From the IMG/VR virus record IMGVR_UViG_3300046787_000438, positions 88,412 to 152,411 of that record: a stretch of 64,000 nucleotides of DNA. The stretch is one strand, 5' to 3'. The position numbers and the translations under genes were made by a program. This document shows, piece after piece, positions 4,846 through 60,697 of the stretch (within the stretch, counting starts at the first letter, position 1; each line of letters opens with the position of its first letter). This DNA comes from a virus. The notes beneath the pieces are model-generated. The model was not told where the DNA came from and did no database searches. It saw only the letters and a program-made list of their open reading frames with translations.

Positions 4846-4862
4846 GGTAGGATAAGCCTATC

Positions 4863-5705: not shown

Positions 5706-5709
5706 CTAC

Positions 5710-5738
5710 TTGACATAATATCTTGACTATGTTAGGTT
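5710..5738 (+). promoter_or_regulatory. SigA-type promoter, leaderless transcript
   Basis: TTGACA-17bp-TAGGTT, ATG 6 nt downstream. Confidence 0.7.
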
Positions 5739-5744
5739 AAACCT

Positions 5745-6278
5745 ATGACAGTTAAGACAAGAGCCGTTTCGGCAATAATGACAGACATAACTACAATGGG
5801 CGTTGACGCGATTGTAAATGCTGCTAATGAAGATATGGCTGGTGGTGGTGGAGTTGATGGTGCTATCCATCGTGCTGCAGGCCCACTACTTAAGTTAGAG
5901 ACAATCAAACATGCTCCTCTCTATGTAGCTAAGACTGCTATAACTGATGGCTACAATCTAAAGGCGAAGTTTATTGTCCACACGGTTGGACCTAAATATG
6001 GTCATGGTGGTTCTGGTGAGTACCTAGCACTGGAGACTTGCTACCAAAGAGCTATTGTTGCTGCCCACTACAAAGGTGCTAAAAGTGTTGCAATCCCAGC
6101 TATCAGTGCTGGTGTTTATGGATTCCCTAGAGAGCGAGCTGCAAAGATTGCAGTTGAGGCTTCTATTAGGACCGTTGAGTCGCTTGAAGAATTATATGAA
6201 GGTAATGGCCTAGAGGTAATACTTGTTGCATATGACAAAGAAACCCTCGACCTATACCTTAAATATCTAAAGGCATAA
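5745..6278 (+). CDS. macrodomain ADP-ribose hydrolase (YmdB/MacroD-like)
   Basis: DIT..VDAIVNAAN..GGGGVDGAIHRAAG, HTVGP, PAISAGVYGFP. Confidence 0.92.
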   Translation: MTVKTRAVSAIMTDITTMGVDAIVNAANEDMAGGGGVDGAIHRAAGPLLKLETIKHAPLYVAKTAITDGYNLKAKFIVHTVGPKYGHGGSGEYLALETCYQRAIVAAHYKGAKSVAIPAISAGVYGFPRERAAKIAVEASIRTVESLEELYEGNGLEVILVAYDKETLDLYLKYLKA

Positions 6279-6303
6279 GCCGAGGGCTTAGTTGTTAGAT
6301 GGT

Positions 6304-6492
6304 TTAGTCGTCTTCTGGCTTCTCGTAACGAAGTGGGAAGGTGATTACCCAAATCGAAAGTACTACGAGAATAAGGGTTCCAGTTAGTTCTTTGGCTGAG
6401 CCTTCAAGAACGAGCCATGCAACAACCATACCTAGTAAGGTCCATGCCTGGTCAATGATGTCCTTGAATAGGGCTACGAGGAAATTCTTCAT
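6304..6492 (-). CDS. small two-TM membrane protein
   Basis: two hydrophobic helices; coupled to the upstream gene. Confidence 0.7.
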   Translation of the reverse strand: MKNFLVALFKDIIDQAWTLLGMVVAWLVLEGSAKELTGTLILVVLSIWVITFPLRYEKPEDD

Positions 6493-6728
6493 TAGTCTTC
6501 TTCTTTCTTGTTATTATTGTTAGTTGCTTTTGCTCCAAAGTAGCCACCGAGAATACCGATGATTCCACCGAGAGCTGTCTGTACTAGGGTCATAACATCT
6601 GATGAAACTTCTACTGGCTCTCTTGTTGTCTGAGTTTCGATTGCAGCAACCACGTAATCACCAACGATTGCAAATAGAATTGCAAGCATTACGCCAGCTG
6701 CTAGAATCAGCATTGTTTTTTCTTTCAT
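6492..6728 (-). CDS. small two-TM membrane protein (holin-like)
   Basis: two hydrophobic helices, GGYFG, charged tail. Confidence 0.6.
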   Translation of the reverse strand: MKEKTMLILAAGVMLAILFAIVGDYVVAAIETQTTREPVEVSSDVMTLVQTALGGIIGILGGYFGAKATNNNNKKEED

Positions 6729-8644
6729 TACTTAATCTTTCTTGTTGAGGTATTTTCTGAGCGTCGTGAGCCGCCTGATGCGCCTCCGCCTCCGCCCGAG
6801 CTAGCTGCTGCTGAAGTTGCTGCGCCTGCTGCTCCTGTTGCTGCTGCGATAGCTGCGTTACCTGCAACAACTGCTGCAACAACTACCTTCTCTGACTCTT
6901 CACGAACCGCGGGTGCCATGTCAGCGCCAACGTTTGACATGAAGTTAATTGCATCAACGAGGGCTGCAGCACCTGGGATTGCTGCAAGCTCTGGAGAGAT
7001 AACGATGTCATCGGCAGCAGCTGCAATATACAAAGCATCGAGTGCTTGCTCGTATGCTGCTGAGCCCTTCTCTGCTGTCTCGAAGGTTTCGAGTGCTGCA
7101 TCCTTCAAGGCTTCTGCTTGCTTAGGTGATAGGTCAGTGGCTACAATCTCGGTGAGGTCGATCTTCGTTAGAAGTTCGGCGCTGATGATTTCTGGAAGTT
7201 GTTCAGCAGAAGTAATCTCTTCTTCTTTTACAACTGGCGGTTCTGGTTCCACTGGTGTAGGCTCTGGAGTAGGTTCAGGTTCCACGGCTGGTGGTTCTGG
7301 TGCAACGACGGGAGGTTCAGGTGTCGGTTCAACAACAGGTGGTTCAGGTACTACTACTGGCGGTTCTGGTTCCGCTGGTACCGTTGGTTCTGGTGTTGGC
7401 GCTACTGGTGGCTCTGGAGTGGGAGTCGGTGCTGGTGTTGGCTCTGGTTGCGGTTCTGGCGACGGACTTGGTGCTGGAGGCAAAGTTGGCTCTGGCTGTG
7501 GAGTCGGAGTCGGAGTCGGGGTTGGAGTAGGAGTAGGTTCTGGTACTACAACTGGTGGAACTGTAGGGGTAGGTTCTGGAGTTGGAGTAGGTACTGGCAC
7601 TGGTTCATATGCAACTACAAATATAAGAACTTTAACTGTGCCACCTGCTGGATCGCCGTAAATGTTTGACGACTCAATTGTTACAGAAGTCTGCCCACTA
7701 GCTAACTGAGTTAGTTGTGATGAAACTTCAACGCCTCGGGATCCATCATTAGGGTCACCATACCAAGCAGTAATGCTCAAGATACGTTGACCTTCAGGAG
7801 CTACTACTTGAACACTTGAGCCCTCTCCTAGAAGTGTTGCGCCTTCAGGAATATACGGAGCTGAGATAGGTGGAACAGTTGGTTCAGGTGTTGGCTCTGG
7901 AGTTACTACAGGTTCTGGTGTTACAACTGGTTCAGGAGTAGGAGTAGTGGTAGGAGTAGGCTCTACAGTTGGAGTCGGGGTTGGGGTCGGGTCAACTGTG
8001 GGTGCTGGGGTTGGTTCTAGTGTCGGTTCAGGTGTTGGCACAACGGGTTCTGGTGTTAGCACGGGCGGAGTCTCGACCTGAATGACACCATATTCTTCCA
8101 GAGTAACTACCTGACCACTAGTTAAAGTAACGCCAGTTCTTGTCTGACCTTCATAGGTGGGTCCAACAATTGAATAGGAGATAGCAACTGTTCCATCAAC
8201 ATTGATTGCGGCAACAATGTTAATGTTTGTCGGTTCTGTGGCGTTTTGTAGCCAGATAGGTCTGGCGGATATGTCTACTTGGAATCCGCCATCAGAGGCT
8301 GCAATAGTTAAGTGTTCGTCTGCTCGCGCCCAAGGGAACACAACCCAGTCCATCGAGTAGAGCGAGATCGACGGGGTTTGCGGGTAAGTCCAGTATGTTC
8401 CATCGGGACGTCCGAAGGTAATTACAGAGTTTGTTGTAGCAAAAACGTCAGTGTATTGAACTCCGTCAAAAGTTACAGTGGTTGTCAGAGGGATCTGATA
8501 CGAAGAATCATCTCCACCAGGTGTAGTTACTACTACCACTACGGGCTCTACTATGCTATCATCTGCAAAAGCAGTGGTTGCAGCTAGTAAAGGCCACCCT
8601 AGCGCTAACATTAAACTAAGGTATAGTCTGAAATATTTACGCAT
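6728..8644 (-). CDS. secreted/membrane Pro-Thr-Glu-rich surface protein
   Basis: signal peptide, two long PT/PE linkers, lectin-like YGDP..G..K.L segment, Ala/Gly-rich C-terminus with basic tail. Confidence 0.75.
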   Translation of the reverse strand: MRKYFRLYLSLMLALGWPLLAATTAFADDSIVEPVVVVVTTPGGDDSSYQIPLTTTVTFDGVQYTDVFATTNSVITFGRPDGTYWTYPQTPSISLYSMDWVVFPWARADEHLTIAASDGGFQVDISARPIWLQNATEPTNINIVAAINVDGTVAISYSIVGPTYEGQTRTGVTLTSGQVVTLEEYGVIQVETPPVLTPEPVVPTPEPTLEPTPAPTVDPTPTPTPTVEPTPTTTPTPEPVVTPEPVVTPEPTPEPTVPPISAPYIPEGATLLGEGSSVQVVAPEGQRILSITAWYGDPNDGSRGVEVSSQLTQLASGQTSVTIESSNIYGDPAGGTVKVLIFVVAYEPVPVPTPTPEPTPTVPPVVVPEPTPTPTPTPTPTPQPEPTLPPAPSPSPEPQPEPTPAPTPTPEPPVAPTPEPTVPAEPEPPVVVPEPPVVEPTPEPPVVAPEPPAVEPEPTPEPTPVEPEPPVVKEEEITSAEQLPEIISAELLTKIDLTEIVATDLSPKQAEALKDAALETFETAEKGSAAYEQALDALYIAAAADDIVISPELAAIPGAAALVDAINFMSNVGADMAPAVREESEKVVVAAVVAGNAAIAAATGAAGAATSAAASSGGGGGASGGSRRSENTSTRKIK

Positions 8645-8645
8645 A

Positions 8646-8948
8646 TTACTTGTCCCCTAACTCTTCAGCGTTCTTTAGGCGGACAACCTGAGAGAAAATA
8701 GCGTTAACTTCGTCCTGATCGATCTTTCCATCTTCAAGAAATGCGAGTGCAAGTTTCTCTACAACCTTGGCTACCGCTAGTAATCCTCCAAGGGATGCGG
8801 ACAGCCAGACGTCGATACCAATAATAGATCCAGCACCGATAACGGATAGGGCAGACGCGATAAACGTAGCTATAACTCTGTACGAGATGTCAAGAGTTAG
8901 CTTGGCTTTTTTGGTTTTGCTTTTAGGCTTTGATTTAGTGCTAGACAC
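8646..8948 (-). CDS. membrane protein (holin-like)
   Basis: hydrophobic helices followed by DGKID..EVN. Confidence 0.6.
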   Translation of the reverse strand: MSSTKSKPKSKTKKAKLTLDISYRVIATFIASALSVIGAGSIIGIDVWLSASLGGLLAVAKVVEKLALAFLEDGKIDQDEVNAIFSQVVRLKNAEELGDK

Positions 8949-9003
8949 TAGAGGCTCCTGTGTGCTGGATGGCCTCTCCCTGTAACTATTTTACCAGAAA
9001 TGC

Positions 9004-47762: not shown

Positions 47763-50525
47763 ATGCTTGAATTGACCCCACTGATTGCCGATGGTAACTC
47801 TGACGCAGCCCGCCGTGCACGCGTAAAGCTTCAGCCTCGTGACAAGAAGGGCCGCTGGATTCCAACTGGTGCTAGCCTATTCGCGTCTATCAGGGACGCT
47901 GCTGGCAAGGTTTTCCGTATTAATGGAAAAGCTATTGGTGGAACTGCCACTAAGAAGGGCGAGCGCAACGACATCCGCATGCTCGTTGGTAAGGGATACG
48001 AGAGCCTAGGCATCTCACCTAACACAGTTCTTACTGTTAACCCTAAGAATGGTGAGCTTGAGTCTAAGATCAAGCTAAACAGAGACTTTTTGAAGAAAAA
48101 GGGTATCGACCCTGACCTTCAGCACACACTGCCTAAGGCTCTAGACAAGCAGCCTCAGACCCTAGCCGAGATGAAGCCAGAGAAGGCTGACAAACTAGAT
48201 ATCGATCTAGCTTCAGCTGGCCTGACCGCAGATGAAGACAAGACTTTCCGCGCAGAGCGCGACCAGGAGCCACTAGCTAAGCTCCCGCCAGCTATGGAAG
48301 ATCAGGCAGTTACTGGCGAGGATGTGAATGCCTTAGTTGATGATGTACCTGACTTCAAGTCTGGTGACTCAGCTGACTCTGCAATTGCAGATGCCTTGGC
48401 CGATGCATTTTATGGTGGCGACGTACCAGAGCTTGACCAGCTTGTAGATAAGGCCGCGACTCCAGCACCGAAAGCCGAAGCTGTAAAACTTTCAGACCTA
48501 CAAAAGGGCGACATCGTCGCTGGTCCAACTGGTCCGCTAAAGTTCGATCGCGCAGAGAAGCGCATCAACGGGAACTGGGATATTTATGTAGACGATGGTA
48601 GCGGTCGTGGCCCTATCAACATGGTCGCAAAGAGCCACCCGAGCGGTCTATCTGACTCGGATTTCCAGGGCGCTACCATGAAGAGACTTAAGAAGGCAGA
48701 TGCTACTGCAGCACCAGCTACGAAAGCTACTCCTGCAGCACCAGCAAAGCCTTCAGCAACTAAGCCAGCAAAGCCTGCTGCCAAGCCAGCTAAATCACCA
48801 AGCAAGTCTCCAGCACCTAAGAAGGCTGCTGTCCCTGCTGTTGCAACTAAGGTAGACGCAAGTCGCAAGGATGACGGCAAAGACATCGTACCGTCAATCG
48901 TTCCTCAGGAGCAGATGCGCAACATTAAAGTTGCCCAGCTTATGGACGAGAATGGTAAGCCACTATGGACTCGCAACAACACTGGCAAGCGTGTTGCAGT
49001 TGAAGATCCGAATGCGCTATACAACGCCATCCTAGAGAATAACCCCCAGGCTAAGGTGAAAGACAACGGCGCGATTGTTCTAGAGCGCGGAAACTTCACC
49101 GACCACAATGGTGACGTATACAAGTATGAAGTCGCTCTAGCTAAGACTCACGGAAACAAGTACGTTGAGCAGTACTCATTTACCGACAGCAACGGCAAGA
49201 CTCAGAGCTTCCAGCACTACGACTATAAAGACTCTATCGCGGCAATCTACGGTGATAAGAATGGTGTTCGCACGTTCCGTGACCAGATGCTTGGAGTGTC
49301 AATTCCAGGAAAGCAGCCGCCGACTCGCGACACCCTTAACTACTTTGGTAAGGACAAGACTCTTGCTGACCGTATTAGGTACTTCCGCGGAAAGCGTGCC
49401 GAAGGATATACCCCTACACCAGCCGATCTAGCTGATAATAAGAAGCACATCAAGCTACTAACCCCTGAGGAAGTAGTTCAGAAATACCTAAATGGTAGAC
49501 CTGAAGTATTTAACGAATCTGGCGAGGCTGCTGGAACTAAGCTACAGAGTTTCGTTGGCGACGCATGGGAGGCCATCGCAAATGATGACTCTCAGACTTT
49601 CGAACAGATGATGGTTCAGCTTCTTGGAAGACTTCCAGACAACGAGGAGTCTCGCAACCTTCTAGTCAACACCCTGCGTGACGGGATCAAGCAAAAGTTT
49701 AATGGAACTACTAAGGGTCGTTCGCTAGCTACCTTAGCTAACAACATCGAGAAGAAGATTATGCAGGAAGGCTGGGATCTTCGAGACACTAACAAGCGTC
49801 CTTGGACCAGCCGCGACGGCAAGACTATCGTCATGCCAGGCAATAAGGTTCGTTATTGGAACTCTACTGGCGAGTGGTCTATCGGTGAGGTGTCGTCTGT
49901 TAACAAGCCAAAACAGGGCTACGATGACATGGCGACTATTACATTCGCCAACGGCAAGAAGGCAGTACTTAGAACTGACAAGCTAGATGTACTAGGCGCG
50001 GAATTAGACCCATGGTTGAATGAGCACGACCAAGATTCTACAGTCAGCGAATACAAGCCGAGCCCTAAGGGCAAGGAACTTCGCGAAGCCCGAGGATATC
50101 TAAACTTTGGTGACGAGCAGCTTCAGCAGGATGACAACTCTTCGACTCCAACTGGACAGCCAAGCACTACTAATCAAAATGCGACAGCTCCATACCTAGG
50201 AACTGCTGGACAGGATAATAGCTCTAACGCTACTCCTACTCCTGACGCCACTCCTGCCGCTCCCGCTGCACCTGCAGCTCCAGCTCCAGCTCCAGCTCCA
50301 GCTCCAGCTCCAGCTCCAGCTAATGCTCCAGATCCAATAGAGGATATGGAAGCTGGCGACTCCTGGCATAGTGAGGATGGCGACTATCTAGGGTCGTTTG
50401 TAGAAGCTCAGCTAGTCACCTCGGACGATGGGACTACCGAAGCCTGGGCAGTAATCTACATGGATGCTAACGGGGACGAGCAGTTAGAGATAGTTCCGAA
50501 GGGTGAAACCCGCGGCCCAAAATAG
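47763..50525 (+). CDS. large head-associated protein (N-part of predicted -1 frameshift fusion)
   Basis: QPRDKKGRW motif, SH3-like segments, PA linkers; ends GGC CCA AAA TAG. Confidence 0.8.
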   Translation: MLELTPLIADGNSDAARRARVKLQPRDKKGRWIPTGASLFASIRDAAGKVFRINGKAIGGTATKKGERNDIRMLVGKGYESLGISPNTVLTVNPKNGELESKIKLNRDFLKKKGIDPDLQHTLPKALDKQPQTLAEMKPEKADKLDIDLASAGLTADEDKTFRAERDQEPLAKLPPAMEDQAVTGEDVNALVDDVPDFKSGDSADSAIADALADAFYGGDVPELDQLVDKAATPAPKAEAVKLSDLQKGDIVAGPTGPLKFDRAEKRINGNWDIYVDDGSGRGPINMVAKSHPSGLSDSDFQGATMKRLKKADATAAPATKATPAAPAKPSATKPAKPAAKPAKSPSKSPAPKKAAVPAVATKVDASRKDDGKDIVPSIVPQEQMRNIKVAQLMDENGKPLWTRNNTGKRVAVEDPNALYNAILENNPQAKVKDNGAIVLERGNFTDHNGDVYKYEVALAKTHGNKYVEQYSFTDSNGKTQSFQHYDYKDSIAAIYGDKNGVRTFRDQMLGVSIPGKQPPTRDTLNYFGKDKTLADRIRYFRGKRAEGYTPTPADLADNKKHIKLLTPEEVVQKYLNGRPEVFNESGEAAGTKLQSFVGDAWEAIANDDSQTFEQMMVQLLGRLPDNEESRNLLVNTLRDGIKQKFNGTTKGRSLATLANNIEKKIMQEGWDLRDTNKRPWTSRDGKTIVMPGNKVRYWNSTGEWSIGEVSSVNKPKQGYDDMATITFANGKKAVLRTDKLDVLGAELDPWLNEHDQDSTVSEYKPSPKGKELREARGYLNFGDEQLQQDDNSSTPTGQPSTTNQNATAPYLGTAGQDNSSNATPTPDATPAAPAAPAAPAPAPAPAPAPAPANAPDPIEDMEAGDSWHSEDGDYLGSFVEAQLVTSDDGTTEAWAVIYMDANGDEQLEIVPKGETRGPK

Positions 50526-52654
50526 ATAGGGCTGTAGCTCCAGGAACACCTGCTGCAGCCCCGAAAGCCGCTAAAAGCTTACAGGGCGTAACATTCTCTA
50601 AGTCTCTATCTGGGATCAGAGAGTTGAAGACTGGCGCTACCCTAGGTAGACCTCGAACTACCCCTATTGACCCCAGCTTCCATGATTTGAAGAATATTGA
50701 AGCTCATATCTTCAGCACCCTTCCAGCTTCAGTAGATCTAGACGGTCTAGACGACAAGATCCAAGCCGTCCGTTCTGCTAGAACTGACATGTCTACAGAT
50801 ATCAACGTAGACCCAGCGAAGCAGTCGATCTACGAGGCAGCGCTTAAGGATCTTCTAGACTTCCACCACGATCAGTTCGATAAGGGCGAGAGCTACACCT
50901 TCCCGCTATCACTGATCAAGTCAGATCAGGCACTAAGCCCACGTGGCATTGCTAAGATTGCTGCTGCCTCTCATGGTAGAGACAGGTCTGGAAATGCTCC
51001 TAAGTCTGTAGACACTCTAGTTGACGAGTCTGTCAAAAACTTTAGAGACAAAACCCCTAGAATCAATGATGTCTTGTCAGCTCTCGGCAGCGAGTGGCAG
51101 GCACAGGGAGCTAAAGAGTATCACGATGAACTTACTAGTAAGTTCTCTAAAAAGTATTCTGACCTAGGTCTCCCTCGCGCAGAAGCTGATTTTAGGTCTA
51201 AGGTTAGAGCATCGAACATGCTCAACAATCAGGCAGGCAATCCAGCGCTTGCCCAGGTAAAAGTATCATCTAGCTCGGCCAACGCGGATATTTTCGTCTA
51301 CATGAACGATAACGGCGACGGCACATTAACGCCAAGCCTAAGTGGCGCTCAGGCTAAATACGTGAATGATGCAATCGCTAAGTCGCGTGCCTTCAGATTC
51401 AACAAGGACAAGACCACTGTACACGCGCTAGGCAATTCAACATATCTACCGCCAGCAGTTGCCAGCACTATCGGTGATAGCGATGCAGCATTTACCTACT
51501 TCGGGGGTGACGGGGTTTACCTATATCCAGACAGAGTTTCTGGCATTTTAGGAAAGCTCCCAGATGACCCTAAGTTCTACTCGACTGACATAAAGACCGA
51601 AGCAGACGCCTTCAACCACATCGTCGTCCATGAAACTGGGCACCTTCAGATGTACAAGCTATGGGGCGACGACAAGAATAGCGGTAGAGCTGCACTAGCT
51701 GCAGACATGGCTAAGCTCAATGTTTCTCAGGATGTTGGCACCTACTCGCGCAATAGTGCCTCAGAGAGTTTCGCGGAGCAATACGCTAAGTATCTACTAA
51801 CTGGAGATGCCTCTCAGCAGTTCCTAGATCTGCTCTCTTCTAAGGGCCTAACAAAAGCCCAGATAAACAAGAAGTGGCGAGACGCATACACTGCTAAGTC
51901 AGCTCAGCACGCAGCGTTCATAGATAACTTAGTTAAATTTGCCTCCGACTTCGGAGACGGAACTAATCCAAATGATCCTGAAAACACCATTGATTATGGA
52001 ACTAAAGATAGCCTTTATGGATCTAAATGGGCAAGTAAGGTTGCCAGACTAGTCGGATATCGTCAGAATCTGCCAGCAACTGTCTCGGCCATTGACCCTA
52101 GTACTCACCATGTTATTTATCGTGGAGTGGATGCTTTCGGCAATAAGACTGGCTGGGACCTGCACAATGACTTTAGAACTAAGTCAGAGCCATGGTATGG
52201 ATTCGGAATCTTCGGAGATGGTCAGTACTTCAGCACCATAGAGTCTACAGCAAGAAGCTTTGGCTCCGTAGTGGCAAAGATGGGCATAGATAAGAATGCT
52301 AATTTGGCATCCTACTATTACAACAGAGGCGGAAAACCCGTTATTGCTAAGAACGGATCTCAGTTCAACATAGAGGAATTCTATGCTGACCTATATAGCA
52401 ACATAATTCCAGACTATATCCGCAATGAAATAGACCCAGACATGTCTGACCAAGAAGTAGCCAGACTGGCTCGAAAGATGCTGAACTCTGCGGGCCTCGG
52501 AGGAGGAAGTGTGCTAGATCAAGATGACGCTGCAATCGTTGCTGGTTGGGCAGGGTTCGATGGACTAGAGGTCGTCAGAGGTGGCGAGTCATATTTCGTG
52601 GTTCTAAATAGAGGAATAATCCAAATGTTGCTACCTAAGGGATATACAAGTTAG
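50522..52654 (+). CDS. zincin metallopeptidase + ADP-ribosyltransferase-like extension (-1 frame of the upstream gene)
   Basis: VHETGH...SESFAE; IYRGV, FGDGQYFS, GFDG...E.YFVVLN; frame open from 50516. Confidence 0.7.
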   Translation: MDRAVAPGTPAAAPKAAKSLQGVTFSKSLSGIRELKTGATLGRPRTTPIDPSFHDLKNIEAHIFSTLPASVDLDGLDDKIQAVRSARTDMSTDINVDPAKQSIYEAALKDLLDFHHDQFDKGESYTFPLSLIKSDQALSPRGIAKIAAASHGRDRSGNAPKSVDTLVDESVKNFRDKTPRINDVLSALGSEWQAQGAKEYHDELTSKFSKKYSDLGLPRAEADFRSKVRASNMLNNQAGNPALAQVKVSSSSANADIFVYMNDNGDGTLTPSLSGAQAKYVNDAIAKSRAFRFNKDKTTVHALGNSTYLPPAVASTIGDSDAAFTYFGGDGVYLYPDRVSGILGKLPDDPKFYSTDIKTEADAFNHIVVHETGHLQMYKLWGDDKNSGRAALAADMAKLNVSQDVGTYSRNSASESFAEQYAKYLLTGDASQQFLDLLSSKGLTKAQINKKWRDAYTAKSAQHAAFIDNLVKFASDFGDGTNPNDPENTIDYGTKDSLYGSKWASKVARLVGYRQNLPATVSAIDPSTHHVIYRGVDAFGNKTGWDLHNDFRTKSEPWYGFGIFGDGQYFSTIESTARSFGSVVAKMGIDKNANLASYYYNRGGKPVIAKNGSQFNIEEFYADLYSNIIPDYIRNEIDPDMSDQEVARLARKMLNSAGLGGGSVLDQDDAAIVAGWAGFDGLEVVRGGESYFVVLNRGIIQMLLPKGYTS

Positions 52655-53224: not shown

Positions 53225-53599
53225 ATGGCAACTAGTAGCATTAGCGACGTATGGTTTTACGTCAACCCAGAAAACGAGCAGATTGATGCCGTTTTGTGCT
53301 ACTTTCCTCTTGGTATGTCCATTAGACAGGGCAAAGACTGGGAAATCACCACTAAAGAGGACTCTGGCATCTACGATGTCCTAACTAACCACAACGTATA
53401 TCAGCTCGACTGGGACTCAGACACTAAGGTCATCGACGATTCTTTCGACTTCGATAACTATGACGATGTTACCCACATTGCACTAAAGATGTATGACAAC
53501 GGGGAGCTAAACCTAGCTGAGCTTAAGAAGTACGCTGAGCTAATCTACACTGCATCTAGCGCCGAGGATATGCCTCAGGCGGAAGATGCCAAGGAGTAA
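53225..53599 (+). CDS. acidic hypothetical protein
   Basis: ORF in head operon. Confidence 0.7.
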   Translation: MATSSISDVWFYVNPENEQIDAVLCYFPLGMSIRQGKDWEITTKEDSGIYDVLTNHNVYQLDWDSDTKVIDDSFDFDNYDDVTHIALKMYDNGELNLAELKKYAELIYTASSAEDMPQAEDAKE

Positions 53600-56500
53600 A
53601 GTGCCAAAATTTCTAGGTATTGCTAATGACTTGGCAATTTTCACTAACAACGGTCTATATGCTGCTGTAAACACTTCCACAAATTTTGTAGAGGACTACA
53701 CCCAGTCTGAGCTATCTGCAATCGTTCAGTCGGAATTCCTTAAGACACTGCAGGTAGTTGTAGAAGATTCAGTGGTAGAGCTAGCCGAGGCAGCTCTGCT
53801 ATCTATCGAGTCAATTACTGCAGGAGGCGCACCTGCTAGCCGTCTCTATACTATTCCTGGTGGCGTTCAGGCAGAGGCTAAGAAGGCACTTAAGTGGCGT
53901 CACGAATCTAAGCGTGGCGGAACTCCAGTCGGCCTAAACACTGCTCGCACTCTTGCAAAGGGTGGCCAGATTGGCATCGAAAAGGTTCGCCACATCGCTA
54001 AGTATTTCCCTCGTCACGAAGTTGACAAAAAGGGCAAAGGCTGGGAGCCAGGCGAAGAGCACTTCCCATCTAACGGCCGCATCGCTTGGGCACTCTGGGG
54101 TGGCGACGCTGGACAGCGCTGGGCCTCTGCAATTGTAGAGCGTGAAAATAAGAAGGCTCTTACATCTGGCGGATACGCACTGCCAGGCTATGAAGAAGAT
54201 GCTGCAATCTACACCTCTGAAGATTCATATGGTGCAGACATCTCTGCCTTCAAGGAAGCTCACGAGCTTGACCCATACGAAGGTCCAGAATTTATGGTCA
54301 GAGTACGTTTAGACGACTCTGGCATTGACCGTTTATATAAAATTGACATTGACGGTCAGGTGTATCTGTGGGACGGCTCGGCATGGGACAACCTAGGTCA
54401 CGTTGATGGTGACGTTTACTCGTATGACCAGGCTTTAGACGATCCGTACGACACCTGTGAGAAGACTCACGTAATTATTGACCCTTCTTCAGCAGTAGTT
54501 ATTTCGGCATTCCTACAGGAGCGCCCGTTCCAGCCAGTTACCCTAGACGAGATCGATCCAGAAGAAGCTCAGCTAATGAGTGACGGGTTGGCTGACGAAG
54601 ATTTCACAATGATCGATAGAGTCATGACTGCTGCAGGAGAGCCAGTAGCTAAGCCTGCAACTGCCACTGACGGTAACTACACTCCTGAAGAGCGTGCGAA
54701 GAATACCCAGGCGCAGCCGCGCGATGCTGGTGGTCTCTTTGTTAAGGTAGGAAGCCGTACTGTAGTTGGTGGAGACGCTAGACGTGGTTCTGGCACGATC
54801 ACCGACATCGACACCACCACTGGTAAGGTTCGCGTAAGACTTGACTCTGGCAAGGTCATAAACGTAGATGCTGGGTTTACCCAGGCCGAGTCTAGTGTTG
54901 ACGCACCGACAATGGTCCCTGGCAGAGATTCACTGCCTCCAATTGATTTTGATTCAATCCTAGGCGAGCCTAGAACCCCTATTGATTCTCCTATAGCCCA
55001 TCTACCAGGCACTCTTCCTAAGTTGACTACTAAGGATATCCACTCTCTAATCAATGGCTTGCCTGCATACTACAAGAGCTCTAGAGACTACAAGCTACTT
55101 CCAGATAAGCCAAAAGGCATGAAGGCTTACGACAAGAAGTACATAAAAGAGCGTTACGGTATTAACGCAGCCGCTACCCCTGAAGATGGAGCTATAGCTT
55201 CGCCTGCAGAGTCAGACGTCACCCCAAAATACCTAGCACTTGTATCGCCTGACGACATGACTGCCGTTATGGATGTTGTCGCATTAGTGCCAGCTAGTTC
55301 AACTTCGACCGAGACAGTACTGTATGAGCGCAGAGAGGGTAAGTGGCAGCCAAACGGTCAGATTCTAAGTGACCTAAAGTCAGCGACACCGCCTCCAGTA
55401 ATCGAGCTCGACACTCAGGAAATTCTGAACGATGTGTTGAAGCAGGCCGATGATGCTTCTAAGCCAGTACAAGCTTCTGCATACCAGTTCTCGATTTTCT
55501 GGGAGCGAGTTGTAGAGCCACTACTAGCGGCTCGTAGAGAGAACTTTGGCTACAAAGACACGGATTCATCTCTGACTGAACACTCCGATGAGGACCCGTG
55601 CTGGGACGGGTATAAGCAGATCGGCTTTAAGGATAAAGACGGTAAGCATGTACCTAACTGCGTAAAGGCAACCTCTACAATTGCTGCAGCTGGCGGATTT
55701 GATCGTAACCGAGGCAATGCAGAGGCTCTTCGAGAGTACTGGACCCACGGTAAGGGTGCTGCCAAGATCCGCTGGGGAACTCCTGGTGACTGGACCCGCT
55801 GCGTTCGTAATCTTTCAAAGTACATGGGACCTCGTGCAAAGGGCTACTGCCAGCTTCGTCACAAGGAAGTTACTGGTGTATACACTGGAAGCCGAATGAA
55901 CCCAGGGCACAAGAACGGCTCTAAGAACTTCTCTTCTCTATATCAGAGCGAGCAGCAGTTCGCTGACACCATGATTGAGAAGGCCCGTCTATCGGCAATT
56001 GCAGCAGATGCTCGCGAGAAGATTAGCCTAATTGCTTCAGCTGACTCGGGCGTTGCTGGCTCTAAATTTTCGATCCCTATGCTAGTACCAGAGGGCGTCG
56101 AGTCTGGTGACGGACGTAAGTTCGCAGAAAACGCGATCTCTGTTCGTGAACTTCCAGTTCCGCTTCTATGGCAGATCAAGACTGGTGCTGGCCACGATGG
56201 TTCCGTTGTAGTTGGTCGAATCGACTACATCGAGCGTATCGAAGGCGGCATGGGAAATGCTTATGGTGTATTTGACAACGGTCCTTACGGCCGTGAAGCA
56301 GAGCGCCTAGTGCGTAACGGCTTCCTACGTGGAGTTTCGGTTGACCTAGACAAGTTCGAGGCCAAAGAAGATAAGCAGCCTAAGGAAGAGATGGCTGAAG
56401 ATGGTGGCCAAGAGATAGGTAAGGATAAACTTACCATAAACAAGGCCCGCATTATGGCTGCTACAATTGTAGCTAAGCCAGCATTTCAAGAATGCTCTAT

Positions 56501-57722
56501 TTTATTGCAAAAAAGCGGGGATCAGGAGGATAACGTGACCCCAGAAGACGGCGTATACGAAGAGACTACACAGGATTTTTCAGATCTAGAGCCGATGCTT
56601 GCATCTGGGTTCCTGGAGTCTGAGATTCCTATGACTCCTCCAGCTGATTGGTTCGAGAACCCAGGTTTCACTAAGGCAACCCCATTGACAGTAGATGCTG
56701 ACGGCCGTGTATACGGACACATCGCTGCGTGGAACGTGAACCACATCGGACTACCTCGTGCAACCAAGCCACCTCGCTCGCGTAGCAAGTATGCATACTT
56801 CCACACTGGAGTAATTCGTACCGAAGCTGGTACCGACGTTCCAGTAGGTCAGCTAACTCTCGCTGGCGGACACGCCCCTCTTAATGCTGATGCAATGTCA
56901 GCAGCTAAGCACTACGACGATACAGCTTCAGCTGTAGCAGACATTCACGTTGGTGAAGATGAGTACGGTATCTGGTGCGCTGGGTCCCTACGTCCAGGAC
57001 TGGAAGAAATGCAAATTCGCGCTCTACGTGCGTCTGCTCCTTCAGGTGACTGGCGTCCAATTCAAGGTTCACTAGAACTTGTGGCAATTTGCCAGGTAAA
57101 CGTTCCAGGCTTCCCAACCGCTCGCGCAATGATTGCATCTGGCAAGATTCTTGCCCTTGTTGCAGCAGGCGCTAACTACATGGCACTAATGAAGAGCCAT
57201 GCAGTAGTTACACTCACAAACAAGGCTGACTTGCTAGGTCAATTAGCCAATACAGCTCCAGACCTCAAGTCTAGAGTTAGAGAGGCTAAAAAAGCGATGC
57301 GTGAAGCAAACCTACAGGCCATCACCGCTAGTGCAGCAGATCTACGCGATCGTGCTCTAGTAGCGGCTGCAATTGCAGAGCTTGCTACCATTCCAGAGAA
57401 AGAGCGCCTAGCTCTTGCTAAGGAAGGTAAGGCAATGCCTGATGGTTCATTCCCTATTCGTAATGAAGAAGACCTTAAGAATGCGATTCACGCTTACGGT
57501 CGCGCTAAGGCTTCTGACCGCAGAGAGGTGCGCAAGCACATCACCAAGCAGGCTCGCTCACTCAAGCGTGCTGACCTCATCCCTGAGCAGTGGAAGAATG
57601 CTGACTCTATGGAAGCTGCGGCAAAGGTAGCATCTATGCGTGCTACCATCACTGCATCTGCAAATAGCGAGGCGGTGGTGGCTGCAGCCCCAAAAGTGAT
57701 GAGATCTCAGACGCAGATTTAA
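53586..57722 (+). CDS. multidomain capsid maturation protease polyprotein
   Basis: ESGDGRKF...PLLWQ..GHDGSVVVGRI...LRGVSVD protease core; GRVYGHIA.W, SGDWR domain; DGSFPIRN..DL.NAI. Confidence 0.82.
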   Translation: MPRSKVPKFLGIANDLAIFTNNGLYAAVNTSTNFVEDYTQSELSAIVQSEFLKTLQVVVEDSVVELAEAALLSIESITAGGAPASRLYTIPGGVQAEAKKALKWRHESKRGGTPVGLNTARTLAKGGQIGIEKVRHIAKYFPRHEVDKKGKGWEPGEEHFPSNGRIAWALWGGDAGQRWASAIVERENKKALTSGGYALPGYEEDAAIYTSEDSYGADISAFKEAHELDPYEGPEFMVRVRLDDSGIDRLYKIDIDGQVYLWDGSAWDNLGHVDGDVYSYDQALDDPYDTCEKTHVIIDPSSAVVISAFLQERPFQPVTLDEIDPEEAQLMSDGLADEDFTMIDRVMTAAGEPVAKPATATDGNYTPEERAKNTQAQPRDAGGLFVKVGSRTVVGGDARRGSGTITDIDTTTGKVRVRLDSGKVINVDAGFTQAESSVDAPTMVPGRDSLPPIDFDSILGEPRTPIDSPIAHLPGTLPKLTTKDIHSLINGLPAYYKSSRDYKLLPDKPKGMKAYDKKYIKERYGINAAATPEDGAIASPAESDVTPKYLALVSPDDMTAVMDVVALVPASSTSTETVLYERREGKWQPNGQILSDLKSATPPPVIELDTQEILNDVLKQADDASKPVQASAYQFSIFWERVVEPLLAARRENFGYKDTDSSLTEHSDEDPCWDGYKQIGFKDKDGKHVPNCVKATSTIAAAGGFDRNRGNAEALREYWTHGKGAAKIRWGTPGDWTRCVRNLSKYMGPRAKGYCQLRHKEVTGVYTGSRMNPGHKNGSKNFSSLYQSEQQFADTMIEKARLSAIAADAREKISLIASADSGVAGSKFSIPMLVPEGVESGDGRKFAENAISVRELPVPLLWQIKTGAGHDGSVVVGRIDYIERIEGGMGNAYGVFDNGPYGREAERLVRNGFLRGVSVDLDKFEAKEDKQPKEEMAEDGGQEIGKDKLTINKARIMAATIVAKPAFQECSILLQKSGDQEDNVTPEDGVYEETTQDFSDLEPMLASGFLESEIPMTPPADWFENPGFTKATPLTVDADGRVYGHIAAWNVNHIGLPRATKPPRSRSKYAYFHTGVIRTEAGTDVPVGQLTLAGGHAPLNADAMSAAKHYDDTASAVADIHVGEDEYGIWCAGSLRPGLEEMQIRALRASAPSGDWRPIQGSLELVAICQVNVPGFPTARAMIASGKILALVAAGANYMALMKSHAVVTLTNKADLLGQLANTAPDLKSRVREAKKAMREANLQAITASAADLRDRALVAAAIAELATIPEKERLALAKEGKAMPDGSFPIRNEEDLKNAIHAYGRAKASDRREVRKHITKQARSLKRADLIPEQWKNADSMEAAAKVASMRATITASANSEAVVAAAPKVMRSQTQI

Positions 57723-58366
57723 AAGAGCTTAAGAAGGCCAAAACAGAGGCCGATAAGCAAACTGCAGACGAGATCAAAGCCGCCGAAGAAGTTTCAAAAA
57801 ACAAAGGTAAGCCCGCTCCTACCGATGGAGAGATAGACCCAAAGACTGGTACTCCTAAGTACGTGTCTGGTGTTAACCAACCCCGTGATGCTAAGGGTAA
57901 GTACCGCACAGTTCTTGCACGACTAAAGCAGAACCTTGGAGTTGCTGGATTGGCTAAAGCCCTAAAGCAGGCTGAAGAGGCAGAGAATCTTGACTTCGCT
58001 GGTGACTATGTCGCGTCAGCTGGAGCTAGCGCTAAGCTGCTCGATACCATTGATAGAATTGACTCTGGAGCTTTGAACGCCAAGGCCCTAGAAAATGTTA
58101 AAACATCAGCTGCTGAACTAGGTAAGGTAATTTCAAACCTACCGCTACCTTTCGGTCAAGATGCACAAAAGATAAAGTTTAGCGATTTGCCTTCGGGGCT
58201 CAAGGATCTTGTAGATTCTATGATCACCCGCGTGGAGGCAAAAATCGGTAAAAAGGATGCAGATATTGCTACGCAAGATCTAAAGTCCTACATGGCTGGA
58301 GCAGATCTCTACTCGCAAGGTGAGATCCAATCTCAAATGAGTAAGCTGCTCCGACTCCTTACCTAA
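57695..58366 (+). CDS. C-terminal extension in the -1 frame of the protease polyprotein
   Basis: frame open from 57689; contains QPRDAKGKY; weak independent GTG start. Confidence 0.65.
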   Translation, partial: SDEISDADLKELKKAKTEADKQTADEIKAAEEVSKNKGKPAPTDGEIDPKTGTPKYVSGVNQPRDAKGKYRTVLARLKQNLGVAGLAKALKQAEEAENLDFAGDYVASAGASAKLLDTIDRIDSGALNAKALENVKTSAAELGKVISNLPLPFGQDAQKIKFSDLPSGLKDLVDSMITRVEAKIGKKDADIATQDLKSYMAGADLYSQGEIQSQMSKLLRLLT

Positions 58367-58483
58367 AAAGTAAGGTAAAATTATCCATAGGTGGAGCGCC
58401 TCACGCCTTGTGCGTCGAGTCCCTCGGCCTTGACTGTAAATCGGACACAACCGTGTCCAATACTAACTGGCCTAGGAGGTACA

Positions 58484-60697
58484 GTGTACGACCAGATTAA
58501 GACTCAGCTAGACACTATCACTGAGCTTAGCGATGAAACACTCGCAGAGCTTCAGGCAGATATTGTCAGCCAGTTTGAAATGGTTGAGGGTGAAGACCCG
58601 ACTCCTGAGACAGTTGATGCTATGACGTCACTAGCTGACTCTCTTGACATCGTTCGCGGCGAGCTTGCAAACCGCGAGGCTATGACTGCTGAACTAGCAG
58701 CCAAAGCTGCCGAGGCAACCGCCCGTGTCAAGGGTGAAGTTGCTGGCGACGAGGGAGAAGAAATGGCTATAGACGAAAACCAGCCAACAGAAGAGGAAAC
58801 TCCTGCAGAGGACCAGCCAGTGGAAGAAACTCCAGTGGACGAGGCTCCTGTAGAAGAAGTTCCTGCAGAAGAGACCGCCGCAGCTGAGGAAACTCCAGCT
58901 GAGGAAGAAGCTCCTGCCGAGTCTGAGACTGAAGAGACCCCTGCTGATGAAGCAGAGGAAACTTCAGAGGAAGCTAAGAAAGAAGAAGAAGACGGAACAG
59001 AGAAGGCCATGAGCGCTTCTGTTGAAACCGAGACTACTTCTGATGTAGCTACTACAGATGAAGCTGCTGTTACTGTAGCTCCAGTCGAGGCTGAAGCATC
59101 AGTCGTTGAGACTGTTGCTGCGGCCGAGGAGATCGTAGAGGCATCCGCAGATGTTTCAGAGGTTGCTGAGCTTTCAGCTACCGACGAAGCCGCTGCAGAA
59201 GCTGTAGCCGAGACCGATGAGGTCGAGGAAGCATCAACCGCTCAGGAAGACGGTTCTGAACTATCAACCACAACCGAGGAAGCCACTGAGCTTTCTACCG
59301 ATGAGACTGCAGAAGCAGTAGCAGAAGTAGAGACAGCTGCAGAGCTTTCTTCAGAAGCAACTATTGAAACATCAACCGCTCTTGTAGAAGAGCAGAATCA
59401 GGAGCAGGCAGTGACCGCTGCAGCAGAACAGCCTTTCGAGGCCCCAGCTGACCGTCAGCCTGTAGTTCAGGAAACCGTAGCACCAGTAGCAATTACTGCT
59501 GGCGCTGACATCCCAGGCTACAGCGCGGGAAGCACCATCAACGATCTAAACGAAGTTGCAACTCTTATGGAGAAGCGCCTTCACTCACTACGCCGTGTTA
59601 ACGGTGGCGACGGAGAACAGCACATTGTTGCTTCATTCTCTACTCAGTACGCTGAGGACCGCTTCCTAGGCACCGACGCTGAGGCTAACACTGCTAAGAT
59701 CAACGCGAGCACCGCTCTTGTTGCATCTGGTGGTCACGGTGCCCCAGTCGAGACCAAGTACGATATCTTCGGTATTGGGTCAACCACCAACCGTCCAGTT
59801 CGTGACGCACTTCCTAAGTTCCAGGCAGACCGTGGCGGTATCCGTTACGTAACCGCACCTTCATTCGCTTCTGGCGACTATGCAGATGCTGTTGGCGTAT
59901 GGACTGCTGCAGTTGATGAGGACCCGCAGGGTGCAACTAAGTCATCTCTAACCGTTACAGCTGCTGCTGAGAACACTGCCGTCACCGACGCAGTTACTCT
60001 ACAGCTACAGTTCGGTAACTTGATGACCCGCGCGTATCCAGAGCTAATCGCTCGCCACAACGAGCTTGCTCTAGTACAGCACGCTCGCGAGGCAGAGGTT
60101 AACTTGCTTACCAAGATTGGTGCAGCTTCGACTGCAGTTACTTCTGGAACCATCATTGGTTTTGGTCGCGACTTCCTAGTCTCAGTACGCAAGGCTGCTG
60201 TTGCCTATCGTTCACGTCACCGTATTGCTTCAACTACTAAGTTGACCGCAATCGTTCCTGACTGGATCTTCGATGCAATGGCTTCTGACCTAGCTATCTC
60301 AATGCCTGGAGACAACACCCTTGGTGTCACCAAGTCTGAGATCGAGGGCTACCTAGCTCTAAGCAACGTTAACCTAGTTGCCTCTCCTGACCTAAACTAC
60401 TACGGTGCACAGGCTGGTTCAGCTGCGCTTACCGAGTGGAAGGACAGCTTCGTCTGGTACCTATTCTCAGAGGGCACATTCTTGTTCCTTGACGGTGGTA
60501 CTCTAGACCTAGGTATCATCCGCGACTCATCACTAGTTGGAACTAACGACTACAAGATGTTCGTTGAGACCTTCGAAGGTATCGCAAAGGTTGGTATCGA
60601 ATCACTAGCAATCACCCAGACCGTTAACATTAACGGTGTGGCTGCTGCTCTTCGCGACACCACTGGTGGCGCAACTGCAGCTGCTGTCGAGCTCTAA
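58484..60697 (+). CDS. major capsid (hexamer) protein with long acidic N-terminal scaffold-like region
   Basis: SD GGAGG before GTG 58484; E/A/T/P-rich linker; ALVASGG, RGGIRY, LDLGIIRDS.L..NDY..F.E.FE. Confidence 0.85.
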   Translation: MYDQIKTQLDTITELSDETLAELQADIVSQFEMVEGEDPTPETVDAMTSLADSLDIVRGELANREAMTAELAAKAAEATARVKGEVAGDEGEEMAIDENQPTEEETPAEDQPVEETPVDEAPVEEVPAEETAAAEETPAEEEAPAESETEETPADEAEETSEEAKKEEEDGTEKAMSASVETETTSDVATTDEAAVTVAPVEAEASVVETVAAAEEIVEASADVSEVAELSATDEAAAEAVAETDEVEEASTAQEDGSELSTTTEEATELSTDETAEAVAEVETAAELSSEATIETSTALVEEQNQEQAVTAAAEQPFEAPADRQPVVQETVAPVAITAGADIPGYSAGSTINDLNEVATLMEKRLHSLRRVNGGDGEQHIVASFSTQYAEDRFLGTDAEANTAKINASTALVASGGHGAPVETKYDIFGIGSTTNRPVRDALPKFQADRGGIRYVTAPSFASGDYADAVGVWTAAVDEDPQGATKSSLTVTAAAENTAVTDAVTLQLQFGNLMTRAYPELIARHNELALVQHAREAEVNLLTKIGAASTAVTSGTIIGFGRDFLVSVRKAAVAYRSRHRIASTTKLTAIVPDWIFDAMASDLAISMPGDNTLGVTKSEIEGYLALSNVNLVASPDLNYYGAQAGSAALTEWKDSFVWYLFSEGTFLFLDGGTLDLGIIRDSSLVGTNDYKMFVETFEGIAKVGIESLAITQTVNINGVAAALRDTTGGATAAAVEL

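What the first reader, a model, noticed from the sequence alone, without database searches (positions are those of the whole stretch)
57669..57865. Second -1 frameshift at the same C_CCA_AAA heptamer extends the prohead-protease polyprotein
Seen: GCC CCA AAA GTG (heptamer 57689-57695) lies 8 sense codons before the stop. The -1 frame is open and protein-like (SDEISDADLKELKKAKTEADKQ...) into the 57863 ORF. An SD-like GAGGCGGTGGTGG lies upstream and a weak hairpin starts 6 nt downstream. Predicted products: 1378 aa and ~1593 aa. Two identical slippery sites at the ends of two head genes argue against chance or assembly error. Established phage frameshifts are best known in tail-chaperone and capsid/tail genes, so paired use here looks unusual.
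Basis: partly seen in the sequence, partly recalled or inferred. Interest (0 to 1): 0.8.

Follow-up and report, generated by a model that had tools for sequence, protein, structure and literature searches.

The report
Frameshift extends phage prohead protease
An uncultured 152-kb phage of actinobacteria very probably makes some ribosomes slip back one base near the end of its 1378-residue head-protease gene. That adds a 223-residue helical domain which related phages encode in the same frame or as a separate gene.

Summary
The protease ORF (53586-57722) carries C_CCA_AAA in phase at 57689-57695, 8 codons before its TAA. The -1 frame is open from 57668 to 58366.

The frameshift reading is strongly supported by comparison:
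- Relatives (Microbacterium phages, IMG/VR and metagenome contigs) encode protease plus this C-terminal domain as one ORF. The predicted 1593-aa product aligns with them colinearly across the heptamer.
- Fifteen related contigs from at least 12 samples, plus a relative at 75% identity (L063), keep the break, the heptamer and the stop.
- Variable sites switch from third positions of frame 0 to third positions of frame -1, including 57723-57862.
- No ATG/GTG/TTG lies in the -1 frame before GTG 57863. That GTG has no Shine-Dalgarno sequence, is GTA in one haplotype and GTT in L063.
- A conserved 73-nt hairpin starts 7 nt downstream.

The SD-like element is not supported. In-frame relatives of the same clade also keep the heptamer and hairpin, so the signal may predate a 1-nt deletion.

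The mechanism is known, but I found no earlier report of it in a prohead protease gene. This scan already followed up the sister site at 50516 on this genome. There is no experimental proof, and the domain's function is unknown.

The parts
53586..57722 (+). Frame-0 ORF of 1378 aa: a large head protein with a prohead-protease domain (about residues 830-1260). It is the product of standard decoding.
   Evidence: PHROG hits: phrog_18402 head maturation protease 4e-59, phrog_859 1e-94. Pfam Peptidase_S78 is below its cutoff (17 vs 21 bits).
57689..57695 (+). Slippery heptamer C_CCA_AAA, in phase (GCC CCA AAA).
   Evidence: It is invariant in the window plus 15 related contigs, in L063 and in 12 in-frame relatives. 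C_CC.A_AA.A is listed as shift-prone in E. coli (PMC4066793).
57703..57775 (+). Predicted stimulatory extended hairpin. The outer stem is GAUCUC (57703-57708) paired with GAGAUC (57770-57775), and the spacer after the heptamer is 7 nt.
   Evidence: MFE -23.7 kcal/mol, z about -3. All haplotype substitutions fall in loops. Two pairs covary among heptamer-bearing relatives. The structure is absent from relatives without the heptamer.
57720..57722 (+). Frame-0 stop codon TAA, 8 codons after the heptamer.
   Evidence: It sits at the same offset (+31) in all 16 close sequences and in L063.
57695..58366 (+). -1 frame extension: 223 codons plus stop, with A57695 read twice. It comprises a charged linker followed by a conserved helical domain (QPRD..G...LRLLT).
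   Evidence: colinear with fused homologues; 17 of 26 variable sites in 57723-57862 and 69 of 81 in 57863-58363 are at -1-frame third positions; helical AF2 model.
57863..57865 (+). GTG that gene callers take as the start of a 167-aa ORF. It is probably not a real start.
   Evidence: No SD upstream, unlike neighbouring genes. It is GTA (synonymous Val) in L032/L033 and GTT in L063.
57669..57681 (+). No evidence that it acts as a stimulator.
   Evidence: Present. The same sequence occurs in in-frame relatives as E-A-V-V-A coding sequence. GAGG lies 16 nt from the heptamer.
50516..50561 (+). Sister site (context only): C_CCA_AAA (50516-50522) + TAG + 6-nt spacer + 13-bp hairpin (50529-50561). 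It joins the 920-aa ORF to the -1 ORF that ends at 52654.
   Evidence: Heptamer plus stop are conserved in G001 and in G003, which is only 38% identical.

Best explanation
This is a programmed -1 ribosomal frameshift.

Most ribosomes read GCC CCA AAA and continue in frame 0 for 8 codons to TAA. That gives the 1378-aa protease protein ending ..AAAPKVMRSQTQI.

A fraction pause with tRNA-Pro and tRNA-Lys on CCA AAA, held up by a hairpin 7 nt downstream. They re-pair one base back on CCC AAA and continue in frame -1. That gives a 1593-aa protein ending ..AAAPK-SDEISDADLKEL.. plus a roughly 165-residue helical domain.

That domain is a module which relatives carry either fused in frame to the protease or as a separate gene between the protease and major capsid genes. 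I infer that it is a capsid-interior or scaffold-like docking module, and that the frameshift sets the ratio of protease with and without it.

Shown: the anatomy of the site, homology across the junction, conservation, coding constraint in frame -1, and the absence of a start codon.

Inferred: that the slip is ribosomal, its efficiency, the stimulatory role of the hairpin, and the function of the added domain.
For: 1. Fused homologues. Cece, Pumpernickel, Big4, A3Wally, Zooman, L009-L011, L021, L022 and L024 encode both parts in one ORF of 1498-1733 aa where complete.
2. Junction. The predicted product aligns without a gap across it: window AAAPK|SDEISDADLKEL against L022 AAAPKAEEISDADLKEL.
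3. Independent sequences. Fifteen related contigs from JGI, ENA (SPAdes) and Logan assemblies of at least 12 samples, in at least 4 haplotypes, keep the 1378-aa ORF, the heptamer, the TAA at +31 and the open -1 frame. L063, at 75% aa identity, does the same.
4. Coding signature. Variable sites upstream of the overlap: 35 of 39 at frame-0 third positions. In 57723-57862: 17 of 26 at frame -1 third positions (binomial p = 8e-4). In 57863-58363: 69 of 81.
5. No start codon. There is no ATG/GTG/TTG in frame -1 before 57863 in any sequence. In L032/L033 the first start is 29 codons into the conserved domain, and in L063 it is at codon +97. There is no SD before 57863.
6. Heptamer under selection. 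Its three wobble positions are invariant, while the same TPK codons at 55223 vary. A scan that left those three positions free returned 9 in-frame relatives, all with the full heptamer.
7. Hairpin. z about -3, substitutions only in loops, two covarying pairs, and no structure in heptamer-less relatives that encode a similar peptide.
8. The same genome uses the same heptamer plus a hairpin at 50516, and that site is conserved at 38% aa identity.
9. C_CC.A_AA.A is a shift-prone heptamer in E. coli (PMC4066793).
Against: - No protein, ribosome-profiling or reporter data exist, because the phage is uncultured and its host unknown.
- Efficiency cannot be estimated. In E. coli, X_XXA_AAA motifs are weaker than X_XXA_AAG (PMC4066793).
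- The region 57687-57724 is invariant in the close set, so coding constraint directly after the slip site cannot be measured separately from other constraints.
- The hairpin is a long, bulged prediction, and its outer stem is built from two conserved Glu-Ile codon pairs. Part of its conservation could therefore be protein-driven.
- The added domain has no recognisable family or fold match. The biological purpose is therefore an inference from gene order and helical content.
Confidence: 0.87

Rival explanations
1. Sequencing or assembly error: one base was dropped in the C4A4 run, and the true gene is a single in-frame ORF as in relatives.
For: The break lies at a homopolymer pair. Restoring one A would give exactly the fused protein.
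Against: The same break is found in 15 related contigs from at least 12 samples assembled by three different pipelines, in several haplotypes. It is also found in L063 at 75% identity. An identical C4A4 context at 55223 is read without a break.
Confidence: 0.01
2. A real 1-nt deletion split the gene. The downstream domain is now made only as a free protein from its own start (GTG 57863 or a non-canonical codon), as in DSL-LC01 and many relatives that have a stand-alone gene. There is no meaningful frameshifting.
For: Stand-alone versions with ATG and SD exist in relatives, so the domain can work as a free protein. Gene callers pick GTG 57863.
Against: - There is no SD before the GTG.
- The GTG is lost by synonymous change in L032/L033 and is absent in L063, with no alternative start before the conserved QPRD motif.
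- The 140 nt upstream of the GTG evolve as frame -1 coding sequence and are homologous to the linker of fused relatives.
Confidence: 0.05
3. Transcriptional slippage rather than ribosomal slippage: RNA polymerase adds an extra A in the A4 run, so a fraction of the mRNAs are in frame.
For: It would give the same protein and the same conservation of the A-run. Sequence comparison alone cannot separate the two mechanisms.
Against: - From my own knowledge, known productive slippage needs runs of about 7 or more A or T. Here there are only 4 A.
- The conserved unit is the full in-phase X_XXY_YYZ heptamer, including the C at the preceding wobble position.
- The site also has a hairpin at the canonical 7-nt spacing.
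- Both features are hallmarks of ribosomal -1 frameshifting.
Confidence: 0.04
4. A decaying remnant: the deletion inactivated the C-terminal domain, which is no longer expressed.
For: The domain is dispensable as a fusion in some relatives, for example DSL-LC01, where it is a separate gene.
Against: The -1 ORF stays open for 222-232 codons in all copies. In 57863-58363, 69 of 81 variable sites are at third positions, and the family's invariant residues are retained.
Confidence: 0.02

Closest known systems
Lactobacillus phage A2 major head protein gp5A/gp5B and major tail protein (-1 frameshifts near the gene end; Garcia 2004, Rodriguez 2005; cited in PMC5009743)
   Same: A -1 frameshift a few codons before the stop of a virion gene produces a C-terminally extended second product. 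There are two such sites in one virion module. From memory, and unverified because the papers were not held, the A2 site is also C_CCA_AAA with a downstream stem-loop.
   Different: In A2 the extended proteins are the capsid and tail subunits themselves, and the extensions are Ig-like decorations. Here the recoded gene is the prohead protease protein, and the extension is a helical module found elsewhere as a free gene.
Lambda C / Nu3 and P2 gpO-type protease-scaffold arrangements (from established knowledge)
   Same: A prohead protease carries a C-terminal assembly or scaffold-type module, and two related products with and without one part come from one locus. The gene order protease - module - major capsid is the same.
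   Different: Lambda achieves this with an in-frame internal start, giving free scaffold plus the fusion. Here there is no internal start; the two products are free protease and the fusion, set by a frameshift. No sequence or fold similarity to known scaffolds was found.
Tail assembly chaperone G/GT frameshift (Xu, Hendrix and Duda 2004) and T7/T3 gene 10A/10B
   Same: A conserved -1 frameshift at an X_XXY_YYZ heptamer in phage structural-gene modules yields a minor long form and a major short form at a fixed ratio.
   Different: The gene family and assembly step are different. In this family the same junction exists in three states among relatives: fused, frameshifted and separate genes.
E. 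coli dnaX tau/gamma and retroviral Gag-Pro(-Pol)
   Same: dnaX: a -1 frameshift at a heptamer plus hairpin makes a truncated product from an otherwise in-frame gene. The in-frame relatives here may do the same. Gag-Pro: a frameshift sets the ratio between an assembly module and a protease fused to it.
   Different: The resemblance is in logic only. There is no homology, and in the window the long form, not the short one, needs the shift.

Membership tests
Programmed -1 ribosomal frameshift site (heptamer type) | Two ORFs overlap, with the downstream one in frame -1 and lacking its own initiation signal | tested here: met
   The overlap is 57668-57722. There is no ATG/GTG/TTG before 57863, and no SD there. 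L063 has no start until codon +97.
Programmed -1 ribosomal frameshift site (heptamer type) | An X_XXY_YYZ heptamer in phase inside the overlap | tested here: met
   C_CCA_AAA at 57689-57695, with its first base at a third codon position.
Programmed -1 ribosomal frameshift site (heptamer type) | A downstream RNA structure 5-9 nt after the heptamer | tested here: met
   A predicted hairpin at 57703-57775 with a 7-nt spacer and z about -3. Substitutions fall in loops and two pairs covary. Its stimulatory activity was not tested.
Programmed -1 ribosomal frameshift site (heptamer type) | The heptamer is conserved at synonymous positions, and the frame arrangement is conserved across diverged relatives | tested here: met
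   The heptamer is invariant in 16 close sequences, in L063 (75% identity) and in 12 in-frame relatives. The control heptamer at 55223 is not conserved.
Programmed -1 ribosomal frameshift site (heptamer type) | The trans-frame region evolves as coding sequence and matches homologues encoded in one frame | tested here: met
   Third-position periodicity switches frames (p = 8e-4). The alignment with fused ORFs is colinear.
Programmed -1 ribosomal frameshift site (heptamer type) | The trans-frame protein is detected and depends on the heptamer | not testable with these tools
   This needs proteomics or a reporter assay.
Phage scaffolding protein (for the added domain) | Gene position between protease and major capsid protein, and a helical, elongated protein | tested here: met
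   Gene order. The AF2 model is all-helical, with mean pLDDT 70.8.
Phage scaffolding protein (for the added domain) | Sequence or fold similarity to a described scaffolding family | tested here: not met
   No Pfam or PHROG family. No Foldseek match with E <= 0.001 in PDB or BFVD. I therefore do not file it as a scaffolding protein; it is scaffold-like only by position.
HK97-type prohead serine protease (Peptidase_S78) for the upstream ORF | A match to the family profile above the curated threshold | tested here: inconclusive
   Pfam PF04586 scores 17 bits against a cutoff of 21, E = 0.0069. PHROG families annotated as head maturation protease match strongly (4e-59).
Lambda C/Nu3-type nested genes | An in-frame internal start that yields the free C-terminal module | tested here: not met
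   The module is in another frame, and no conserved start codon exists.

The most novel reading that the evidence does not exclude
The heptamer-plus-hairpin signal may be older than the frame break.

In the whole subclade (100/100 support), in-frame relatives keep C_CCA_AAA in phase and the same hairpin, and their -1 frame stops after 4-15 codons. They may therefore use the signal as dnaX does, to make a truncated protease as the minor product.

A 1-nt deletion directly 3' of the heptamer then inverted the polarity in the window lineage. The short form became the default and the long form the frameshift product.

The ML tree suggests the same inversion happened separately in L063, but one origin is not rejected (AU p = 0.25). 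If so, this is a natural case in which a recoding signal buffers an indel and lets the product ratio flip in one step.
Probability: 0.4. Interest if true: 0.75.

Novelty: new variant of a known kind. Interest (0 to 1): 0.62.

Why it matters
Annotation. Pipelines call a 1378-aa protein plus an orphan 167-aa ORF with a spurious GTG start. The real products are most likely 1378 aa and 1593 aa.

Gene context. Programmed frameshifting in phages is textbook for tail chaperones and some capsid and tail subunits. I found no report of it in a prohead protease gene, either in the searchable literature or in what I know.

Comparative value. The same junction exists in four natural states: fused with the signal, fused without it, frameshifted, and two separate genes. 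That gives a ready-made series for two questions. How much protease needs to carry the docking or scaffold-like module? Can a recoding signal make an indel selectively tolerable?

Genome context. Together with the site at 50516, this phage appears to tune the copy number of two large head-associated proteins with one and the same slippery sequence.

Tried and rejected
- Megablast of the region against GenBank phages gave no match. Only protein-level relatives exist.
- Pfam and PHROGs on the extension gave no family.
- An AF2 model of the extension, searched with Foldseek against PDB and BFVD, gave no match with E <= 0.001. The function of the domain remains unassigned.
- The A2 papers (PMC355979, PMC1291274) are not held. 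The identity of the A2 heptamer therefore rests on my memory only.
- Full-text searches for CCCAAAA or 'CCA AAA' with frameshift terms gave nothing relevant.
- Contigs L023, L040 and L041 are chimeric or rearranged upstream of the domain. I did not use them for gene order; L040 was used only for the local junction.
- SD-like stimulator: rejected (see the first-reader verdict).
- Independent double origin of the frameshifted state: the ML tree suggests it, but the AU test does not reject a single origin (p = 0.25), so I do not claim it.
- tRNA genes in the window: none.
- The local alignment used mislocated the region in Microbacterium phages L003-L006. Those rows were ignored.
Full report
**Source.** The window is the last 64 kb of a 152,411-bp IMG/VR virus record with direct terminal repeats. 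Its nearest named relatives are Actinomycetia phage DSL-LC01, a lake metagenome-assembled phage (PMC10611076), and roughly 190-kb Microbacterium phages.

**Observation.** ORF 53586-57722 (1378 aa) ends ..GCT GCA GCC CCA AAA GTG ATG AGA TCT CAG ACG CAG ATT TAA.
- CCCAAAA lies at 57689-57695 with its first C at a third codon position, so it is a canonical X_XXY_YYZ heptamer in phase.
- Frame -1 is closed at 57665-57667 and then open to 58366 (232 codons).
- The first ATG/GTG/TTG in that frame is GTG 57863.
- The frames overlap for only 55 nt, and the heptamer lies inside that overlap.
- CCCAAAA itself is not over-represented in the window (11 against about 7 expected). What matters is where it sits.
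- The same heptamer in the same phase lies at 50516-50522, directly before the TAG of the 920-aa ORF. There the frame overlap is 19 nt.

**What the genes are.**
- The 1378-aa protein carries a prohead-protease region: PHROG head maturation protease 4e-59, with Pfam S78 just under its threshold.
- The next large gene is the major capsid protein (phrog_777, 3e-75). Its real start is probably GTG 58484, behind AGGAGG.
- The 57863 ORF therefore sits where scaffolding genes sit.

**Homologues show the two frames belong to one protein.**
- In Cece, Pumpernickel, Big4, A3Wally and Zooman, and in IMG/VR or metagenome contigs L009, L010, L011, L021, L022 and L024, the protease and the C-terminal domain lie in one uninterrupted ORF. 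Where complete, it is 1498-1733 aa.
- I built the product of a -1 slip at the heptamer (1593 aa). It aligns colinearly with these ORFs: window ..EAVVAAAPK|SDEISDADLKELKKAKTEADKQT.. against L022 ..EAVVAAAPKAEEISDADLKELRKAKKEAEKQT...
- Homology therefore changes frame exactly at the heptamer.
- At the DNA level the window lacks one base directly after CCCCAAAAG compared with L022.
- In DSL-LC01 and many metagenomic relatives the domain is instead a stand-alone gene with its own ATG and SD, of about 180-190 aa or about 281 aa.

**Not an artefact.**
- The 167-aa ORF cluster has 8 sequence variants.
- I retrieved 14 contigs from JGI, ENA (SPAdes) and Logan assemblies, plus L008 from IMG/VR, covering at least 12 samples.
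- All keep the heptamer, the TAA at +31 and the open -1 frame, with no indels. Those long enough also carry the full 1378-aa ORF.
- A much more distant contig, L063 (75% aa identity over 473 residues), has the same anatomy.

**Frame -1 is translated upstream of the GTG.** Variable sites among the 16 close sequences fall as follows (binomial test):

| Region | Variable sites at third positions |
|---|---|
| Upstream of the overlap (57463-57667) | 35 of 39, frame 0 |
| 57723-57862 (past the frame-0 stop, before the GTG) | 17 of 26, frame -1 (p = 8e-4) |
| 57863-58363 | 69 of 81, frame -1 |

- No sequence has a start codon in frame -1 before 57863.
- In haplotype L032/L033 the GTG is GTA (synonymous Val), and the next start lies 29 codons inside the conserved domain.
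- In L063 the codon is GTT, and the first start is at codon +97.
- GTG 57863 has no SD, whereas neighbouring genes have AGGAG-like sites.
- Independent initiation is therefore very unlikely. The only route into this frame is from frame 0 within 57668-57696, where the heptamer is the only slippery motif.

**The signal.**
- The heptamer's three wobble positions are invariant in every relative that has it. An identical in-phase heptamer at 55223 is window-specific (ACT CCA AAG in close relatives) and lacks structure.
- Seven nt after the heptamer an extended hairpin (57703-57775) is predicted: -23.7 kcal/mol, z about -3.
- All six substitutions of haplotype B in this stretch fall in loops.
- Across six heptamer-bearing sequences the outer 6-bp stem is kept, and two apical pairs covary (GC<->AU, CG<->UA) through coordinated synonymous changes.
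- Relatives that encode a similar peptide but lack the heptamer show no such structure (z about 0).
- The segment 57687-57798 has no difference between the window and L008, against roughly 6 expected at their overall 5% divergence (my estimate from the counts).
- C_CC.A_AA.A is among the heptamers that are shift-prone in E. coli (PMC4066793).
- The SD-like stretch upstream is ordinary coding sequence shared with in-frame relatives and is poorly spaced. I give it no weight.

**Sister site.**
- At 50516 the heptamer is followed at once by a stop, a 6-nt spacer and a 13-bp hairpin.
- Heptamer plus stop are conserved in G001, and also in G003, where the flanking proteins are only 30-38% identical.
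- An earlier follow-up in this scan reached the same conclusion for that site.
- This shows that the host's ribosomes are exploited at this heptamer by this phage lineage.

**An unexpected extra.**
- In the subclade that holds the window (100/100 support), the in-frame members (L022, L039, L040 and nine IMG/VR loci) also keep C_CCA_AAA in phase and the hairpin. Their -1 frame ends after 4-15 codons.
- A scan that left the three wobble positions free found the same nine loci, all with the full heptamer.
- This suggests the signal was already in use to make a truncated protease, as in dnaX, and that a 1-nt deletion inverted which product needs the shift.
- The ML tree places L063 away from the window group, which would mean two changes. 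The AU test does not reject a single origin (p = 0.25).

**Function of the extension.**
- It is unknown by homology.
- The AF2 model is all-helical with moderate confidence.
- The family has an invariant QPRD..G..R motif and a C-terminal LRLLT.
- From gene order, helical nature and its occurrence as a free gene, I infer a scaffold-like or capsid-docking module. This is inference only.

**Verdict.** This is a well-supported but experimentally unproven programmed -1 frameshift. The mechanism is known, and the gene context is, as far as I could find, unreported.

Noticed in passing
window 55223-55229: A third in-phase C_CCA_AAA lies inside the protease ORF (ACC CCA AAA TAC). It is window-specific: close relatives read ACT CCA AAG. 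No downstream structure is predicted. It served as a negative control for heptamer conservation.
   Followed up: yes
window 58391-58486: The 768-aa ORF called for the major capsid protein is probably over-extended. GTG 58484 sits behind AGGAGG and matches the 737-aa gene calls in related contigs.
   Followed up: partly
window 47832, 54714, 57878: The motif QPRDxxG occurs in three head-region proteins: QPRDKKGRW, QPRDAGGLF and QPRDAKGKY. In the extension family, QPRD..G..R is invariant over 46 sequences. It may be a shared docking or cleavage motif.
   Followed up: partly
L002 (DSL-LC01) 4591-8954; L011 1659-6666: In other relatives the large protease protein is also split further upstream. DSL-LC01 has 604-aa and 852-aa ORFs overlapping by ATGA in a -1 relation. 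L011 has 657-aa and 1026-aa ORFs overlapping by 46 nt in a +1 relation. I did not examine these for recoding signals.
   Followed up: no
window 50500-50561; L013 (G003): At the sister site, the bases around the heptamer can also pair across it (CGCAGCCC..GGGCTGCG in G003), in competition with the downstream 13-bp hairpin. This may be an alternative structure.
   Followed up: no
L009, L010, L011, L021, L024 (C-terminal 470 aa): Relatives without the heptamer carry two copies of the ..DGSFPIRN..DLKNAI.A.GRAK.. segment upstream of the linker. The window has one copy.
   Followed up: no
L023, L040, L041: In these short metagenome contigs the domain is preceded by unrelated or opposite-strand genes, or by a capsid N-terminal piece. 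They are either chimeric assemblies or real rearrangements.
   Followed up: partly
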